Shown: positions 3,078 through 52,857 of the stretch, in pieces | How the letters are laid out: the number at the start of each line of letters is the position of its first letter | Numbering within the stretch: the first letter of the stretch is position 1 | NCBI GenBank assembly: GCA_035546615.1 | Contig: DASZWM010000003.1 | Coordinates: 32,001-96,000, forward strand | Reading direction: 5' to 3' | Source: Minisyncoccota bacterium | GTDB lineage: Bacteria; Patescibacteriota; Minisyncoccia; Phycocordibacterales; SBAW01 | DNA: 64,000 nucleotides | Notes under the pieces: generated by a model | What the model saw: the letters and a program-made list of their open reading frames with translations, nothing else | Databases searched by the model: none | Told to the model about the DNA's origin: nothing | Made by a program: the position numbers and the translations under genes

Positions 3078-3146
3078 ATGTATATGGTATCTCAAAAAGT
3101 ATGGATGTAAAGCATCAAAAAACCCCGCTGATGCGGGGTTTTTTGA

Positions 3147-4850
3147 TTAGTAGTCCATGTCGTCTCCGCCCATTCCTCCCATGCCTCCCTGCATGCCGGG
3201 GCTTCCCTTTTCTTCCTTCGGCTCCTCCGCTATCACCGCTTCGGTCGTCAACAGCATTGCCGCCGCGGATGCCGCGCGCTCCAGGCCCGTGCGCGCCACC
3301 TTGACCGGGTCAATGATGCCGGCCGCTATCATATCGGGCACCACTTCGTTCTTGACCGCGTCGTAGCCGGCGTTCCCGCTTGCCTCGCGCACCTTCTCCA
3401 CGACCACGCCCGGGTCCACGCCCGCGTTCATGGCTATCTGGCGGAGCGGCTGCTCAAGCGCCTTGATGATTATTTCGTAGCCCACGCGCTCTTCGTGGCT
3501 CATACTCGTGAGCGAAGACTCCACGACCGGCGCGATGGAGCCGCGGCGCGGCTTTATCTTGGCGAACCCTTCCACTACCTTTTGTGCCGCCTTCACGAGC
3601 GACGTGCCGCCGCCCGGAACGATACCCTCCTCAATGGCTGCCTTGGTCGCATTGACCGCGTCCTCGATCTTCAGCTTCAAATACTTCATTTCGGTCTCGG
3701 TCGCCGCGCCCACGCGGATGACAGCAACGCCGCCGGACAACTTTGCCAGGCGCTCGTTGAACTTCTCCTTGTCGAACTTGGAGTCGGTCGATTCTACCTG
3801 CGCGCGTATTTGCGCAATGCGCGCATCGATGTCTTTCTTGGCGCCCTTGCCGCCGACTATCACCGTCGAGTCCTTTGTTGCAATAACCTTGCCGGCCTTG
3901 CCAAGCATGCCAAGCGTCGCATTCTCGAACTTGACGCCGGTCTTCTCTGAAATCAGCTCGCCGCCGGTCATGATGGCGATGTCTTCGAGCATTTCCTGCT
4001 TGCGGTCGCCGTAGCCCGGCGCCTTTATCGCCAGCACGTTGAACGAGCCGCGCAGCTTGTTGAGGATAAATGTGGAGAGCGCTTCGCCGTCCACGTCGTC
4101 GGCCACGATGACCAAGTCCTTCTTGCCGGACTCCGCTACCTTCTGGAGTATCGGGAGCACTTCCTGCACGCTCGATATCTTTTTGTCGGTAATCAGTATC
4201 GGCGCGTCCTTATATACGGCTTCCATGCGGCTGGCGTCGGTCACCATGTAGGCGGACACGTAGCCGCGGTCGAACTCGAGGCCCTCTACGACCTCCTTTT
4301 CGATGCCGAGGCTCTGCGACTCTTCCACCGTCACTACGCCGTCCTTCCCCACTTCTTTAATAGTGTCGGCAATTATTGCGCCGATTTCCGCGGACTCCGC
4401 GGAAATGGTCGCGACCTGGCGTATCTCGTCGTCGTTTTGGATCTTCTTGGCAAGGCCGCGCAACGCGGCAACGGCATCGGCGGCAGCCTTCTCGATGCCG
4501 GCGCGCACGCCCATGGCATTCAGGCCCGCTTCCGTGTGCTTCATGCCTTCCTCGACTATCGCCTGAAGGAGCACGACGGAGGTCGTAGTGCCGTCGCCCG
4601 CGATGTCGTTGGTGCGGCTTGCCACTTCCTTCACTATCTCGGCGCCCATATTCTCGAACTTGTTGCTGAAAGATATCTCCTTGGCGATGGAAACGCCGTC
4701 GTTGGTGATGGTGGGGCTTCCGTAGCCCTTGTCCAGGGCGACGTTGCGGCCGCGGGGGCCGAGCGTTATCTTCACCGCGTTCGCGGCCTTGTCGATGCCT
4801 GCCTTCAGCGTCCGGCGCGCGCGCTCGTTAAAAAGGATTTGCTTTGCCAT
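3147..4850 (-). CDS. groL: Chaperonin GroEL (60 kDa)
   Basis: Full-length match to GroEL ([12 protein letters not shown], ...), C-terminal GGM repeats, and groES immediately upstream. Confidence 0.98.
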
Positions 4851-49315: not shown

Positions 49316-49567
49316 ATGCGATTTTCAGATACTGCCGCGCACACTATATGCATGAAAAAATACGGCGCAGCAGCAGGACGAAAGGTAGAAAAAGTGATGC
49401 ATGAGTATAAAAAAGGCACGCTGAAGTCCGGGCGCGGCGGCAAAGGAGGCCGCGTGAAAAGCCGCAAGCAGGCCATCGCCATCGGGCTTTCGGAAGCGCG
49501 CAAGCGCGGCGCGAAGGTACCGAAAAAGCGTGCGGCAAAAAAGAGGCGCCCCTCGCGCAAAAGCTAG
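49316..49567 (+). CDS. Small basic protein, DUF6496-like (tentative)
   Basis: HEYKKGTLKSGRGGKGGRVKSRKQAIAIGLSEARKRG. Family recall is uncertain. Confidence 0.4.
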   Translation: MRFSDTAAHTICMKKYGAAAGRKVEKVMHEYKKGTLKSGRGGKGGRVKSRKQAIAIGLSEARKRGAKVPKKRAAKKRRPSRKS

Positions 49568-50076
49568 ATCTTCCTGCTGTCGTAGGCCCAGTGGAGCACC
49601 GCCTGCCGCTGCTTGGCATGGCAGGAAAAGTCTCCCTTTTTGCAATGCTTTTTTATTTGCGCTATGTGCCGGCGGATGGCGACCCAGCGCTGTATCTGCC
49701 TGTCATCATCCGGTCCCCGACGGCCCATATAATAGCGGCAGTACCATTGGAACCAGCCGCGCGGGTCATCCTTGTAGATCCATCCTTTCTTGCGCCACAC
49801 GGAGAGCGGCTGGCTTGCGTTAACGCCGAACAAGTTGATGCGCGGGTCATGCGCGTATAAGCCCTTCTTCTGAAACTTCGCTTTGGCAAACCAGTCTTTC
49901 GGGAATTCCTTTATGCAGTCGCGCATGTATACGCCGCCGAAGACCCCCAGCGCGAGCATCTGCTTGGGCGTCAGCTCGGGCTTGAAGCGCGGGTCGAAGC
50001 GTTTGCCCATGGGCTCCGCGAGTTCGTAGCGGTAGCCCTTTTGCATCTTGTCGCTCACCCGTATTGTTCGGCTCAT
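49564..50076 (-). CDS. Conserved hypothetical protein (Trp-rich)
   Basis: 170 aa, WFQWYCRYYMGRRGPDDDRQIQRW. No family was assigned. Confidence 0.45.
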   Translation of the reverse strand: MSRTIRVSDKMQKGYRYELAEPMGKRFDPRFKPELTPKQMLALGVFGGVYMRDCIKEFPKDWFAKAKFQKKGLYAHDPRINLFGVNASQPLSVWRKKGWIYKDDPRGWFQWYCRYYMGRRGPDDDRQIQRWVAIRRHIAQIKKHCKKGDFSCHAKQRQAVLHWAYDSRKI

Positions 50077-50974: not shown

Positions 50975-51244
50975 GCAAAAAGTATAGCACCGAGTTTTGC
51001 ATTCGGGTTCCCTGCGAATAGTCCGGCTTCGTCACCCTGTTCCTCAGCTGCCAGACTTGAGATAGAACCGGTCGCGGGTACGGTGTCCAGATTTGCTGCG
51101 GGTGTAGGAATGTCACTTGTGTATTTTTTGTGGCTTAAAATATAGGGCTCGGTTTCTATTTTAGTTCGAATCTCAGGGGGGTCAAAGAAAAAGCCGCCCG
51201 ACGAACTGAGCCGTCGGGGGCTTTGTTCGCGGGCGGTCGCTGCT

Positions 51245-51724
51245 TCAGGGAACGAAGTCGACCTTCGCTTCCCTGAGGTCGGTGAAATATCGCTTTGCCT
51301 CGGCCTGAATCGCCGCAGCGAGCCAGTACGAAAACATCTCGTCGTAGAAGCCCTCGACGCCGGAACAGGCCACGACGATGCCATCAATGACCGCACTCCC
51401 GGAATTGACGGTATCGTCGTCGAGCAGATATTGCGGGGCCACCTTGGTCGTCGGGAGGCCCGTGCGAACCGAGATCTCTGCTTTCGACAGCGCGATCTTC
51501 TTGTATGGCCATTCGTACTTGGCCGGATCGCCGAACTCGTGCACGAGGTAACAGTTGTCCTCGAAGGATTTGCCCTCGGTCATCGGATTGATGATTTCGA
51601 CGGCATTTGCAACGACGACGAGATCTCTCCGCCTGGTGACGCCAGACCTCAGAGTCAACTCGATGCACGGACGCACGAACTCGAACGCGCGGGCTACCGT
51701 GTTGGCAGTCAGGATGCCTTGCAT
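51245..51724 (-). CDS. DUF336 (GlcG/HbpS-like) protein (tentative)
   Basis: The C-terminal SAVIDGIVVACSGVEGFYDEMFSYWLAAA resembles the GxxGVSG...DE motif. The region has lower GC. Confidence 0.35.
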   Translation of the reverse strand: MQGILTANTVARAFEFVRPCIELTLRSGVTRRRDLVVVANAVEIINPMTEGKSFEDNCYLVHEFGDPAKYEWPYKKIALSKAEISVRTGLPTTKVAPQYLLDDDTVNSGSAVIDGIVVACSGVEGFYDEMFSYWLAAAIQAEAKRYFTDLREAKVDFVP

Positions 51725-51756
51725 GTCAGTTACTCCTTCTGTCTATATTGTTGAAC

Positions 51757-52149
51757 TCAGCGGCAGAAAGCTTTGACGATTTCACCCGTCAGCTTCTGCC
51801 GGCAACCCATGACAAAGAGACGGTCACCTCTTTGGAAATCAGACGCAACCAGAGTGCCGGCCTTCGCGCCGCCTCCCATGTACAGGAGGGGCCCGTCCTG
51901 GTGCCCGCCCGCATACTGCGCAAAGAGGCACTCGTGATACTCCAAGGCCGACTCAGGCCTGCGAGCGGGGCCGCGAAAGACAACGATGGGAACCTGTGGA
52001 GACTCCCGATCAACACCGAATGCATCCAGGCTGATTGCAGTGAAGACCAGCGAGCCTCCCTTGTCGATCTGCTCGAGCCATCTGAACTGCAGTCTTTTTC
52101 GATCTCTTTCGACGGTCAGTACTTCCACGTTCAGACCTGCTAAACGCAT
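51757..52149 (-). CDS. Hypothetical protein
   Basis: 130-aa ORF co-directional with 51245..51724. Strand choice over the overlapping plus-strand ORF is uncertain. Confidence 0.3.
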   Translation of the reverse strand: MRLAGLNVEVLTVERDRKRLQFRWLEQIDKGGSLVFTAISLDAFGVDRESPQVPIVVFRGPARRPESALEYHECLFAQYAGGHQDGPLLYMGGGAKAGTLVASDFQRGDRLFVMGCRQKLTGEIVKAFCR

Positions 52150-52357
52150 GGCGTATCCTTTCGTGCTTAATCCGTCGCGTACTATGCCACAAATATCTAA
52201 TAAAAGGAAGTCACGATGTTTCTAGGATTCGAACCAATTTTGTGGCTCAAAATATAGAAACTAGTTTTTGACCCGTCTAGGTCATTTTTGAAACTTTTGG
52301 AAACGAGCCTTATGACACAACGATGTGCCTAGGTCTTTCGATACCGCGTCCATGACT

Positions 52358-52410
52358 GCTGCCAGACTTGGAACTTCGATACCCAAGATAAACGGATCCA
52401 GAGTCCCCTA
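52358..52410 (-). pseudogene. Degenerate partial copy of the tRNA-Gln 3' half
   Basis: gctgccagacttgga-acttcgata-cccaagataaacggatccagagtcc aligns with the 3' ~50 nt of the adjacent tRNA-Gln, with several substitutions. Confidence 0.5.
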
Positions 52411-52429
52411 TTGTCGCTTTATGCGCAAA

Positions 52430-52502
52430 GCTGCCAGACTTGGATTCGAACCAAGATAAACGGATTCAGAGTCCGTTGTCCTACCATTAGACGATCTGGC
52501 AG
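52430..52502 (-). tRNA. tRNA-Gln (anticodon CTG)
   Basis: Hand-folded. Acceptor TGCCAGA/TCTGGCA, anticodon stem ACGGA/TCCGT, loop CTCTGAA, T-arm CTTGG-TTCGAAT-CCAAG. Confidence 0.75.
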
Positions 52503-52857
52503 CTTTACTCACAAAGAACGACAATTTCCTAAAGGAACCGGATGCAAAGGCAAAGCAGTCTGCCTTTCATTCCCGCCACTAGAGGATCTGGCAATAGGTA
52601 TATGCCTGAGGCAAATACACACAAAAGATACCTGAAAACGCGCCAAATCTCAACCTATCTTCCGCTTCATCCTATCCTAAGGATGCCTTCAGTAAGCTTT
52701 AGGCATGATAGCCATACTGCTTATATTAGGCTTCAGCATATTCCTGCTCTTTCTCACGGGCATCATCAACATCGCTACCGACCCGATGAGCATCGACCAG
52801 GAGGAAGAAAGGAAGGAAAGGCATAAAGCCCGCTATGCCGCCTCGACGTACCAGTAG

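What the first reader, a model, noticed from the sequence alone, without database searches (positions are those of the whole stretch)
51040..52510. tRNA-Gln flanked by a degenerate partial copy and by two classes of direct repeats bracketing a lower-GC segment
The 13-mer GCTGCCAGACTTG, which is the complement of the tRNA-Gln 3' end, occurs at about 51047, about 52358 and inside the tRNA (about 52428).

The copy at 52358-52410 continues as a recognisable but mutated tRNA 3' half.

A second 20-mer, TTTTGTGGCT(C/T)AAAATATAG, occurs at about 51126 and about 52237.

The intervening 1.2 kb is less GC-rich and encodes two small hypothetical proteins (one DUF336-like). The pattern resembles att-site duplications left by serial integration or excision of small elements into the 3' end of a tRNA gene, with the integrase since lost.
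Basis: seen in the sequence. Interest (0 to 1): 0.5.

Follow-up and report, generated by a model that had tools for sequence, protein, structure and literature searches.

The report
Scarred tRNA-Gln insertion hotspot
A glutamine tRNA gene in an uncultured Paceibacteria (CPR) bacterium is surrounded by leftover pieces of itself that bracket a small two-gene cargo with no integrase, which is the ordinary signature of repeated insertions at a tRNA gene, with the twist that the working tRNA copy itself lies inside the inserted DNA.

Summary
The repeats are real and non-random. The 13-mer occurs three times, at 51047, 52358 and 52430. The 20-mer occurs twice, at 51126 and 52238. 52358-52415 is a mutated copy of tRNA-Gln positions 22-72.

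- a copy of tRNA positions 1-23 upstream (52571-52593);
- a T-arm relic (52222-52237);
- 15-nt inverted repeats that extend the acceptor stem of the intact gene.

A close relative (L091, PyrG 89% aa identity) keeps ftsX-pyrG-tRNA-Gln...EamA-TspO but lacks both ORFs. Its tRNA leader matches the DNA upstream of the window's 5' relic. Its tRNA 3' end plus trailer matches the 51047 copy and its flank. So the old gene's two ends now lie about 1.5 kb apart, around a functional tRNA-Gln, a 3' part copy and the two genes.

Relatives show that tRNA 3' ends are insertion targets in this clade. One 4.7-kb element carries a large serine recombinase and has a 21-nt repeat. ORF-less elements of 54-197 nt show empty and occupied sites.

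The window holds no recombinase. GC is not lower in the genes. "DUF336-like" holds only at fold level. The 20-mer's role is unresolved.

Verdict: a decayed, integrase-less stack of insertions at a tRNA hotspot. This is a known kind in a new clade, of modest interest.

The parts
52594..52678 (-). Native leader and promoter region of the ancestral tRNA-Gln gene. It contains a promoter-like site, TTGAGA-17-TATCTT, at 52653->52625.
   Evidence: Together with the first ~18 nt of the 5' relic, it aligns to the DNA just upstream of, and into, the tRNA-Gln of L091 (window 52678->52576 with L091 3216-3318; 84% over 106 nt, E 5e-22). The GGTATCTTTTG core is also upstream of the L018 tRNA.
52571..52593 (-). 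5' relic: a copy of tRNA-Gln positions 1-23 (19/23 identical), still joined to the native leader.
   Evidence: Repeat family D4. The alignment to L091 ends at tRNA position 23. The 69 nt that follow are unrelated to the tRNA or to the leader.
52502..52570 (-). Spacer between the 5' relic and the intact gene. Its last ~30 nt form the leader of the intact gene. The last 15 nt pair with the trailer.
   Evidence: Inverted repeat I1, 52417-52438 / 52495-52516, is 86% complementary. 12/15 flank pairs form, against 5.8 +/- 1.8 for 194 tRNAs. This leader aligns with the tRNA-Gln leader of L073 and not with that of L091.
52430..52501 (-). Intact tRNA-Gln(CTG), the only one in the window.
   Evidence: ARAGORN. 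Rfam tRNA 66.2 bits. 100% identical to the tRNA-Gln of L091 and L023.
52416..52429 (-). Trailer of the intact gene (TTTGCGCATAAAGC). It is complementary to the leader. It is neither the native CCA-ACTTGAGCTAG trailer nor the small-element trailer.
52358..52415 (-). Copy of the 3' part of the tRNA (positions 22-72). It has a 3-nt insertion and an altered T loop (GGGTATCGAAGTTCC). It covers what the 5' relic lacks, with a 2-nt overlap.
   Evidence: Local alignment score 73.5 against 23.9 +/- 3.5 in shuffles. The alignment starts at GACAA, tRNA positions 22-26.
52327..52357 (-). Trailer-like flank of the 3' part copy. It is a weak homologue of the trailer that follows the tRNA in L091.
   Evidence: Gapped alignment to L091 3373-3400. 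It is weaker than the flank of the 51047 copy.
52238..52257 (.). 20-mer copy 2 (TTTTGTGGCTCAAAATATAG). On the - strand it supplies the TATATT of a promoter-like site upstream of the 130-aa ORF.
   Evidence: The promoter-like site TAGACG-17-TATATT at 52279->52251 is.
52222..52237 (-). T-arm relic (TTGGTTCGAATCCTAG on the tRNA strand, 15/16 identical to the tRNA-Gln T arm). It abuts 20-mer copy 2.
   Evidence: Repeat family D9. Score 28, which is not significant alone under gapped scoring.
51757..52149 (-). 130-aa ORF of unknown function. It belongs to a small, sporadic family.
   Evidence: Only itself was found by the word-indexed search. Nine further small proteins of 115-140 aa were found by full HMMER (about 31-49% identity). 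Homologues sit in unrelated contexts without tRNAs or integrases. No family hit. The single-sequence structure model is unusable, pLDDT 47.
51245..51724 (-). 159-aa ORF with a GlcG/HbpS/EfgA-like (DUF336) fold.
   Evidence: AlphaFold2 pLDDT 94.6. The top 15 Foldseek PDB hits are all DUF336-type proteins, probability 0.87-1.0, TM-score 0.44-0.65. No Pfam, PHROG or PADLOC hit. 14 homologues besides itself occur in varied CPR contexts.
51197..51218 (-). Intrinsic terminator-like hairpin closing the two-gene unit.
   Evidence: 8-pair stem with 6 G-C pairs, followed by CGGCTTTTTC.
51126..51145 (.). 20-mer copy 1 (TTTTGTGGCTTAAAATATAG).
51047..51069 (-). Displaced older tRNA-Gln 3' end (positions ~50-72). 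The last 13 nt are exact and the T-loop part is mutated.
   Evidence: (D3, 20/24 identical).
51026..51046 (-). Flank of the displaced 3' end (TGAGGAACAGGGTGACGAAGC). It is homologous to the sequence that follows the tRNA-Gln in L091, L018 and L060, which is the left end of their small inserted element. The rest of that element is missing here.
   Evidence: blastn of window 51059->51026 against L091 3360-3393 gives 85% over 34 nt. Alignments. The native CCA-trailer and the core motif are absent from the window. The stretch does not fold better than shuffles, z +1.07.

Best explanation
The locus is a decayed stack of site-specific insertions at a tRNA-Gln gene in a Paceibacteria (CPR) genome.

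Shown:
- The ancestral gene's leader plus positions 1-23, and its 3' end plus the flank it has in relatives, now lie about 1.5 kb apart.
- Between them lie a functional tRNA-Gln with different, self-complementary flanks, a copy of positions 22-72, and a promoter-to-terminator unit of two small accessory genes. One gene has a DUF336-type fold. The other is of unknown function.
- The window contains no recombinase.

Inferred order of events:
(1) A small ORF-less element, of the kind still intact in L091, L018 and L060, inserted into the 3' end of the tRNA and duplicated that end.
(2) A cargo-carrying element inserted at the tRNA-proximal site. It pushed the old 3' end and the left end of the small element outwards, to 51069-51026.
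(3) A roughly 155-nt piece holding a complete tRNA-Gln unit came to lie between positions 23 and 22 of the then-functional gene. That gene's two halves (52571-52593 and 52358-52415) then decayed.
(4) Deletions removed the rest of the small element and any recombinase.

The recombinase was most likely a large serine recombinase acting in cis or in trans, as in the relatives. Today the pieces are inert scars. The intact tRNA is probably transcribed from the native promoter through the 5' relic. The two genes use their own promoter-like site, which overlaps 20-mer copy 2.
For: - Repeats are non-random.
- The native leader is joined to the 5' relic, not to the intact gene.
- The 51047 copy keeps the flank that follows the tRNA in L091, L018 and L060.
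- L091 (PyrG 89% and EamA 92% aa identity) has the same outer synteny but lacks both ORFs, and carries other genes at the site.
- Across 80 pyrG loci, ftsX-pyrG is conserved. Most of the 26 top-ranked loci scanned also carry a tRNA-Gln downstream of pyrG. Its distance, its orientation and the genes beyond it vary.
- L080 has a 4.7-kb element with a large serine recombinase abutting tRNA-Gln(TTG) and a 21-nt repeat of the tRNA 3' end. Recombinase genes or fragments also lie near tRNAs in L063, L053 and L008.
- 14 of 163 tRNAs in these loci have an exact copy of at least 12 nt of their own 3' end within 300 nt downstream. The figure is 0 of 19 in unrelated loci.
- Empty and occupied sites show that these are insertions.
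- The 5' relic (positions 1-23) and the 3' part copy (22-72) are complementary in coverage.
- The flanks of the intact gene resemble those of tRNA-Gln genes in L073 and L087, not L091.
- Both cargo genes belong to sporadic families found in unrelated contexts.
- The general model of partial tRNAs, integrase-less att-flanked remnants and accretion is described in PMC9897764, PMC5704250 and 10.1101/2020.12.28.424599.
Against: - No recombinase gene or pseudogene is in the window.
- The cargo shows no compositional deviation.
- The identity of the distal copy is short: 13 nt exact, about 23 nt in all.
- Only one close relative was available, and it has its own different insertions, so no clean empty site exists for the cargo.
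- The order of events is not determined. Step (3) has no demonstrated mechanism.
- Insertion at tRNA position 22/23 is not a classical integrase sublocation (my knowledge of Williams 2002, cited in PMC9897764).
- The 20-mer pair is not explained by this model.
Confidence: 0.6

Rival explanations
1. Local duplication and decay. The tRNA-Gln gene with its trailer was duplicated in tandem several times by slippage or unequal crossing-over. One copy stayed functional and the others decayed to a 5' piece, a 3' part copy and a 3' end. The two ORFs arrived separately or are native.
For: - All pieces lie on the same strand and in gene order.
- Both 3' copies carry trailer-like flanks.
- An exact 51-nt partial duplicate of tRNA-Gln lies 54 nt downstream of the gene in L052.
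- Degenerate pseudo-tRNAs lie upstream of other tRNAs in relatives.
Against: - The spacers are not repeats of each other or of the native leader.
- The spacing of the copies does not fit a constant period. The 3' part copy begins only 14 nt after the intact gene.
- The intact copy has flanks of a different type from the relics.
- In relatives, the distal copy, not the proximal one, carries the native CCA and trailer. That is the signature of insertion, not of tandem duplication.
Confidence: 0.15
2. The 20-mer pair marks a second, nested insertion. A 1,112-bp unit (promoter, two ORFs, terminator) integrated at a 20-bp site. The 20-mers are then its att cores or a long target duplication.
For: - 19/20 identity and direct orientation.
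- Only two copies exist in 64 kb, and they bracket exactly the two-gene unit with its promoter-like and terminator-like sites.
- A T-arm-like 16-mer abuts copy 2.
Against: - No other instance of the 20-mer with similar flanks was found. There were 0 viral hits, and the 98 metagenome hits of the 18-mer core have chance-level flanks.
- The repeat does not extend beyond 20 nt.
- No recombinase is present.
- Homologues of the two ORFs are never neighbours elsewhere.
Confidence: 0.3
3. The 20-mer is a shared promoter or operator element (a small palindrome, TTTTG-N5-CAAAA, next to a TATATT box). It was duplicated upstream of two transcription units, orf130-orf159 and EamA-TspO. It is not a recombination scar.
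For: - On the - strand both copies lie upstream of start codons, 89 nt and 152 nt away.
- Copy 2 supplies the -10 box of a predicted promoter.
Against: - Only two copies exist in 64 kb.
- Copy 1 lacks a matching -35 box. A better promoter-like site (TTGACC-16-TAAAAT, 10/12) lies just upstream of it.
- The motif is not conserved upstream of EamA in L091, where EamA follows the preceding gene by 26 nt.
Confidence: 0.25
4. The tRNA pieces are functional parts of structured RNAs (tRNA-mimicking trailers) rather than scars.
For: - In relatives, the elements that end in a copy of the tRNA 3' end have covarying hairpins, and the L091 element folds better than shuffles (z -2.5).
- The intact window gene has an unusually long leader-trailer helix, shared with tRNA-Gln genes of L087, L073, L049 and L054.
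Against: - The window's own pieces are degenerate.
- The 51047-51185 stretch folds no better than shuffles (z +1.07).
- The conserved core motif is absent from the locus.
- No Rfam family matches.
Confidence: 0.08
5. Assembly artefact: the arrangement is a chimera created by the metagenome assembler at the repeated tRNA segments.
For: The source is a MAG contig. Repeats cluster here.
Against: - The repeats are only 13-24 nt, shorter than assembler k-mers (my general knowledge; the assembler settings are not known).
- An independent Logan contig is 100% identical over 52459-50097.
- The part from 52459 to 52700 is covered only by the MAG.
Confidence: 0.03

Closest known systems
Genomic islands and integrative elements in tRNA genes (Reiter 1989; Williams 2002; Islander; reviewed in PMC9897764)
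   Same: A complete tRNA gene at one end and a partial direct copy of its 3' part at the other. Variable cargo lies between them. Content differs between relatives.
   Different: No integrase is present. The cargo is only about 1.3 kb. A 5' piece of the old gene also survives, and the functional gene lies inside the inserted DNA with its own flanks. Classically only the 3' part is replaced.
CIMEs (cis-mobilizable elements) and tandem accretion at att sites (Pavlovic 2004; reviewed in PMC5704250)
   Same: att-flanked remnants that lack integration genes, stacked in tandem. Newer arrivals sit next to the target gene.
   Different: CIMEs are defined in Firmicutes as decayed ICEs or IMEs, usually with tyrosine integrases and conjugation-related ancestry. 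None of that is shown here, and mobility was not tested.
Tycheposons and tRNA-seeded additive islands of Prochlorococcus (10.1101/2020.12.28.424599)
   Same: A streamlined genome in which flexible genes accumulate next to particular tRNAs. Partial tRNAs separate successive elements, and degenerated remnants remain.
   Different: Most tycheposons carry a particular clade of tyrosine recombinases plus replication modules. Here the only recombinases seen at tRNAs in relatives are large serine recombinases, and the window has none.
Large serine recombinase integrases of phages and mobile elements
   Same: The L080 element encodes Resolvase + Recombinase + Zn_ribbon_recom domains and sits at a tRNA gene between direct repeats.
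   Different: Serine-integrase sites usually share only a few bases and often disrupt genes (PMC5704250). Here the shared block is 21 nt and restores the tRNA end. No such enzyme is encoded in the window.
MITEs (miniature non-autonomous transposons), as an analogy for the small elements in relatives
   Same: Short (54-197 nt), ORF-less, structured, and with internal inverted repeats. Several copies can occur per genome. One subtype shares an end motif with a recombinase-bearing element.
   Different: Their ends are tailored to each tRNA. The duplicated target is 12-24 nt of the tRNA 3' end, not a 2-10 bp target duplication. No DDE transposase is implicated.
DUF336 / GlcG-HbpS-EfgA-NahX-PduO C-terminal domain proteins (for the 159-aa ORF)
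   Same: Same fold by Foldseek (probability 0.87-1.0, TM-score 0.44-0.65), and similar length.
   Different: 11-17% sequence identity. No Pfam match at E<=0.1. Ligand and function are unknown.

Membership tests
Integrase-mediated insertion in a tRNA gene (genomic island / integrative element) | Intact tRNA at one boundary and a direct partial copy of its 3' part at the other | tested here: met
   Intact gene at 52430-52501. Copies at 52358-52415 and 51047-51069 lie on the same strand.
Integrase-mediated insertion in a tRNA gene (genomic island / integrative element) | The distal copy keeps the flank that the tRNA has in genomes without the insertion | tested here: met
   The flank of the 51047 copy matches the sequence that follows the tRNA in L091, L018 and L060. 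That flank is itself the left end of an older small insertion. The truly native CCA-ACTTGAGCTAG trailer is absent from the window.
Integrase-mediated insertion in a tRNA gene (genomic island / integrative element) | Integrase or recombinase gene inside the element, usually next to the tRNA | tested here: not met
   The coding content is two small ORFs without recombinase domains. tblastn with two large serine recombinases from relatives finds nothing in the window.
Integrase-mediated insertion in a tRNA gene (genomic island / integrative element) | Presence/absence polymorphism among related genomes | tested here: met
   L091 (PyrG 89% aa identity) and 80 further pyrG loci lack both ORFs at this site. 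No exact empty site for the cargo was available.
Integrase-mediated insertion in a tRNA gene (genomic island / integrative element) | Excision to a circle and regeneration of attB | not testable with these tools
   This needs reads or PCR from the source sample.
CIME (integrase-less, att-flanked remnant) in tandem accretion | Retains attL and attR, has lost the integration and transfer genes, and lies in tandem with other elements at the same target | tested here: inconclusive
   att-like tRNA copies are present, no recombinase is present, and at least two stacked units exist. Descent from an autonomous element and cis-mobilization are not shown.
Tycheposon | tRNA-specific tyrosine recombinase of the tycheposon clade plus replication genes | tested here: not met
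   No recombinase, primase or helicase lies in the segment.
DUF336 (Pfam PF03928-type) family, for the 159-aa ORF | Match to the family profile above threshold | tested here: not met
   No Pfam family at E<=0.1. A profile search of PDB sequences finds nothing relevant.
DUF336 (Pfam PF03928-type) family, for the 159-aa ORF | Shared fold with solved members (ORFY, HbpS, EfgA, NahX, PduO C-terminal domain) | tested here: met
   Model pLDDT 94.6. The top 15 Foldseek hits are all from this family, probability 0.87-1.0.
Group I intron in a Patescibacteria tRNA gene (PMC13011429) | An intron interrupting the tRNA (anticodon loop) that matches the group I model | tested here: not met
   The tRNA is uninterrupted. 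No group I intron hit at E<=10 in the window locus or in the two relatives' elements searched at that threshold (L070, L091), and none at gathering score in nine relatives' loci.

The most novel reading that the evidence does not exclude
Paceibacteria may carry an undescribed class of ORF-less, structured mini-elements of 54-197 nt. They insert site-specifically into the 3' end of tRNA genes (Gln, Asp, Met, Thr). They duplicate the last 12-24 nt. Most carry an inverted copy of the same segment, so that the element closes on a mimic of the tRNA acceptor and T stems. They have covarying internal hairpins, and one subtype shares its end motif with an element that bears a large serine recombinase. 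Under this reading the window's locus is a decayed stack of such elements. One would be a cargo-carrying version (the two ORFs) and one would have delivered a replacement tRNA-Gln gene into the old one. The elements could be miniature non-autonomous integrative elements, or tRNA-mimicking RNAs co-transcribed with the tRNA.
Probability: 0.3. Interest if true: 0.65.

Novelty: new member of a known kind. Interest (0 to 1): 0.38.

Why it matters
Mobile elements and the routes of gene flow in CPR/Patescibacteria are poorly known (my own assessment; one literature search turned up no paper on tRNA-targeted integration in this group). This locus and its relatives show that a tRNA-Gln gene next to pyrG is a recurrent entry point for small accessory genes. 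They also show that large serine recombinases are associated with tRNA 3' ends in this group.

For annotation, the locus illustrates that partial tRNA copies mark old insertion boundaries, and that the functional tRNA gene can be the incoming copy rather than the resident one.

The window itself adds little beyond that. The more interesting lead is the family of small structured insertions at tRNA 3' ends in the relatives. If these are mobile or transcribed, they would be a new kind of miniature element or tRNA mimic.

Tried and rejected
- Pfam, PHROGs and PADLOC on both ORFs gave nothing.
- The 20-mer had no hit in viral contigs. The 159-aa protein had no relative in viral contigs.
It returned 98 hits whose flanks are at chance identity (mean 17/62). 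The motif is therefore not a widespread site, and that scan was wasted.
- I suspected that the 20-mer repeat extends to about 40 nt with a 16-nt T-arm insertion. This is not significant.
- I suspected that the 5' relic is a whole decayed pseudo-tRNA (positions 1-55). I rejected this because the 69 nt after position 23 score at chance against the tRNA and the leader.
- I tested whether 51047-51185 is a degenerate copy of the relatives' small element. Only the closing pairing is predicted, the fold is no better than shuffles (z +1.07), and the core motif is absent.
- Rfam, at gathering and at E-value thresholds, found only tRNAs in the window locus and in the relatives' elements. No ribozyme, intron, tmRNA or sRNA family appeared.
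- The single-sequence AlphaFold model of the 130-aa ORF has pLDDT 47 and is unusable, so no fold search was run.
- I looked for direct repeats around the recombinase genes near tRNAs in L063, L008 and L053. None of 10 nt or more lies within the DNA held.
- The literature search on tRNA-like RNAs in CPR returned nothing relevant. The group I intron paper describes a different thing.
Full report
**What is in the sequence**

The window comes from a Candidatus Paceibacterota MAG. The source names of both ORFs say so, and the nearest PyrG relatives are Adlerbacteria.

tRNA-Gln(CTG) lies on the - strand at 52430-52501 (Rfam 66 bits). The 13-mer GCTGCCAGACTTG, the complement of its 3' end, occurs exactly at 51047, 52358 and 52430 (0.13 expected).

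The 52358 copy continues to 52415 as a copy of tRNA positions 22-72. It has a 3-nt insertion and an altered T loop. Its score is 73.5, against 23.9 +/- 3.5 in shuffles. The 51047 copy is convincing for positions about 50-72 only (20/24 identical).

The 20-mer TTTTGTGGCTYAAAATATAG occurs at 51126 and 52238. It occurs nowhere else in the window, even with 3 mismatches. It does not extend significantly beyond 20 nt.

- a copy of tRNA positions 1-23 at 52571-52593, 69 nt upstream of the intact gene (19/23 identical);
- a T-arm relic at 52222-52237 that abuts 20-mer copy 2 (15/16 identical);
- 15-nt inverted repeats that prolong the acceptor stem of the intact gene (52417-52438 / 52495-52516). 12 of 15 flank pairs form, against 5.8 +/- 1.8 over 194 tRNAs.

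**The genes in between**

Two ORFs lie on the tRNA strand, each with a ribosome-binding-site-like sequence read directly from the DNA. A promoter-like site uses the TATATT of 20-mer copy 2. A terminator-like hairpin lies at 51197-51218.

The 159-aa protein has no Pfam, PHROG or PADLOC match. It gives a confident model (pLDDT 94.6). The 15 best PDB matches of that model are all DUF336-type proteins: ORFY, NahX, EfgA, HbpS and the PduO C-terminal domain (probability 0.87-1.0). So 'DUF336-like' holds at fold level only. It has 14 homologues besides itself, in varied CPR neighbourhoods.

The 130-aa protein has nine remote small homologues of 115-140 aa, in unrelated contexts. Its structure model is unusable. 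The two families are never neighbours elsewhere.

GC of both ORFs is 0.58, equal to the window mean of 0.575. Only the non-coding parts are AT-richer.

**Comparison with relatives**

Eighty pyrG loci from GTDB species representatives keep ftsX-pyrG. Most of the 26 top-ranked loci scanned for tRNAs carry a tRNA-Gln downstream of pyrG. Its distance from pyrG runs from 47 nt to 4 kb, its orientation varies, and the genes beyond it vary.

The closest genome found is L091, reached through a 92%-identical EamA. PyrG is 89% identical at the protein level. L091 has ftsX, pyrG, a phosphatase-like gene, tRNA-Gln (100% identical to the window's), a 137-nt structured element, two other genes, then EamA, TspO, DUF6496 and LapA. 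It lacks both window ORFs.

Window 52678->52576, which is the leader plus the first ~18 nt of the 5' relic, aligns to the L091 leader plus the start of its tRNA (84%, E 5e-22). Window 51059->51026, which is the distal 13-mer plus 21 nt, aligns to the L091 tRNA 3' end plus what follows it.

The ancestral gene's two ends are therefore separated by about 1.5 kb. The intact gene lies inside that interval. Its leader and trailer resemble those of tRNA-Gln genes in the more distant L073 and L087, not L091.

The 69 nt between the 5' relic and the intact gene are unrelated to the tRNA or to the native leader. The 5' relic (positions 1-23) and the 3' part copy (22-72) together cover one whole gene, split by about 155 nt that hold the functional one.

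**Evidence that tRNA 3' ends are insertion targets in this clade**

In L080, a 4.7-kb element abuts tRNA-Gln(TTG). It encodes a large serine recombinase with Resolvase, Recombinase and Zn_ribbon_recom domains. It ends in a 21-nt copy of the tRNA 3' end. Related recombinase genes or fragments lie near tRNAs in L063, L053 and L008.

14 of 163 tRNAs in the CPR loci have an exact copy of at least 12 nt of their own 3' end within 300 nt downstream. In unrelated loci the figure is 0 of 19. Ten of the 14 also have an inverted copy in between.

For tRNA-Gln(CTG), genomes without the element read ...GCAGCCA(A/G)CTTGAGCTAG. In L091, L018 and L069 it is the distal copy that carries this native CCA and trailer. 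The intervening sequences of 54-197 nt are therefore insertions that duplicated the tRNA end.

These elements are structured:
- The L091 element folds with z -2.5.
- One hairpin covaries among six loci.
- Two G-U pairs in the predicted closing stem of the L091 element fit a transcript of the tRNA strand.

No Rfam family matches them. One subtype shares its right-end motif (ACTGAAnCTGTAAGnT followed by the tRNA copy) with the L080 recombinase element.

In the window, the flank of the 51047 copy is the left end of the L091/L018/L060-type small element. The rest of that element and the native trailer are gone.

**Interpretation**

The best reading is serial insertion at a tRNA hotspot followed by decay. 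The inferred order is as follows:
1. An old small element inserted.
2. A cargo-bearing insertion pushed the previous 3' end outwards.
3. A tRNA-Gln unit came to lie inside the then-functional gene.
4. Deletions removed the rest of the small element and any recombinase.

This matches the general model of partial tRNAs at element boundaries (PMC9897764). It also matches integrase-less att-flanked remnants that accrete in tandem (CIMEs, PMC5704250) and tRNA-seeded additive islands in streamlined genomes (10.1101/2020.12.28.424599).

What is shown:
- the repeats;
- the split of the ancestral flanks;
- the absence of the cargo in relatives;
- the absence of a recombinase;
- insertion at tRNA 3' ends in relatives.

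What is inferred:
- the order of events;
- the enzyme;
- any past mobility of the window's own pieces.

The 20-mer pair remains unexplained. It could be the boundary of a nested 1.1-kb insertion or a duplicated promoter or operator. It has no counterpart in viral or metagenome collections.

A pure tandem-duplication history is less likely. The spacers are not repeats. The intact copy has different flanks. In relatives the distal copy is the native one.

An assembly artefact is unlikely for 52459-50097, which an independent assembly reproduces exactly.

**Verdict**

The thing is a new member of a known kind, a decayed integrase-less insertion stack at a tRNA gene. The small structured insertions at tRNA 3' ends in related genomes are the part worth following.

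Noticed in passing
L091:3373-3509; L018:6940-7083; L039:7329-7519; L060:12868-13003; L082:3514-3691; L083:12124-12276; L069:10791-10965 (- strand): Downstream of tRNA-Gln in several Paceibacteria there is an ORF-less structured element. It consists of a trailer, then an inverted copy of the tRNA T arm or 3' end, then a conserved core (GGGGTCGG-hairpin-CCGTGGAGGAA, then AACCGNGGGTT), then a direct copy of the tRNA 3' end. Empty and occupied sites show that it is an insertion. One hairpin covaries. No Rfam family matches.
   Followed up: partly
L070:2941-3108 (tRNA-Asp), L045 downstream of tRNA-Asp 1510-1584, L081:5023-5219 (tRNA-Met), L059:408-530 (tRNA-Thr); L057:10649-10702, L085:4741-4900, L077, L070:10074-10248, L080:14970-15141: There are other subtypes of the same architecture at tRNA-Asp, tRNA-Met, tRNA-Thr and tRNA-Gln. 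One has a last hairpin GGGGTCG...GTGACC. Another has a hairpin with a conserved UGUAA loop and a covarying stem. In L045 only the last 12 nt match the local tRNA, and the T-loop part looks like that of another genome's element. This suggests transfer between genomes.
   Followed up: partly
L070 downstream of tRNA-Asp (3109-3183, - strand); L027 downstream of tRNA-Met (3972-4046, - strand); L076:3945-4232: The small elements can be tandemly repeated. After the tRNA-end copy the same element starts again. L076 has three inverted tRNA-Asp 3'-end copies at a 135-nt period.
   Followed up: no
L080:10146-15141: A 4.7-kb element at tRNA-Gln(TTG) encodes a 500-aa large serine recombinase. Its reading frame runs antisense into the tRNA gene, which supplies about the last 19 codons. 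The element ends in a 21-nt tRNA repeat and is followed by a small element and a further degenerate repeat.
   Followed up: partly
L058:3267-3283, L063:2674-2690, L070:794-808, L076:5025-5049, L054:3233-3253: Exact copies of the first 15-25 nt of a tRNA (Asp, Met, Thr) lie 64-90 nt upstream of the intact gene, like the 5' relic in the window. Some are followed by scrambled pieces of the same tRNA.
   Followed up: partly
window 52417-52516; L087 around 5878; L073 around 13358; L049 around 6560; L054 around 15977: Several tRNA-Gln(CTG) genes have a leader and trailer that are complementary for 11-13 of 15 nt. This extends the acceptor stem through the discriminator base. It is an outlier among 194 tRNAs (mean 5.8, sd 1.8).
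   Followed up: partly
window 49564-50076 (- strand): A 170-aa ORF without a Pfam match lies between TspO and DUF6496 in the window. It is absent from that position in L091. 80%-identical homologues lie a few kb downstream of pyrG in L022 and L023. This is another indel in the same variable neighbourhood.
   Followed up: no
L010, L011, L017, L019, L026, L028, L029, L032 (tRNA-Gln near pyrG): The orientation of tRNA-Gln relative to pyrG is inverted in about a third of the relatives examined. In L010 the 4 kb between them holds small accessory genes (DoxX, DUF1801, glyoxalase, NUDIX, methyltransferase) and no integrase.
   Followed up: partly
L008:5789-6498: A homologue of the 159-aa DUF336-fold protein (59% identity) lies 140 nt from a tRNA-Gln(TTG), divergently oriented. 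A large serine recombinase lies 4 kb downstream of that tRNA.
   Followed up: no
L052:13956-14131: An exact 51-nt copy of tRNA-Gln positions 18-68 lies 54 nt downstream of the gene. It looks like a recent partial duplicate, similar in layout to the window's 52358-52415 copy.
   Followed up: no
window 52705-52857 (+ strand): A 50-aa hydrophobic ORF lies between pyrG and the tRNA leader. It has a weak counterpart at the same place in L091 (43% over 37 aa), so it may be a real small membrane protein.
   Followed up: no
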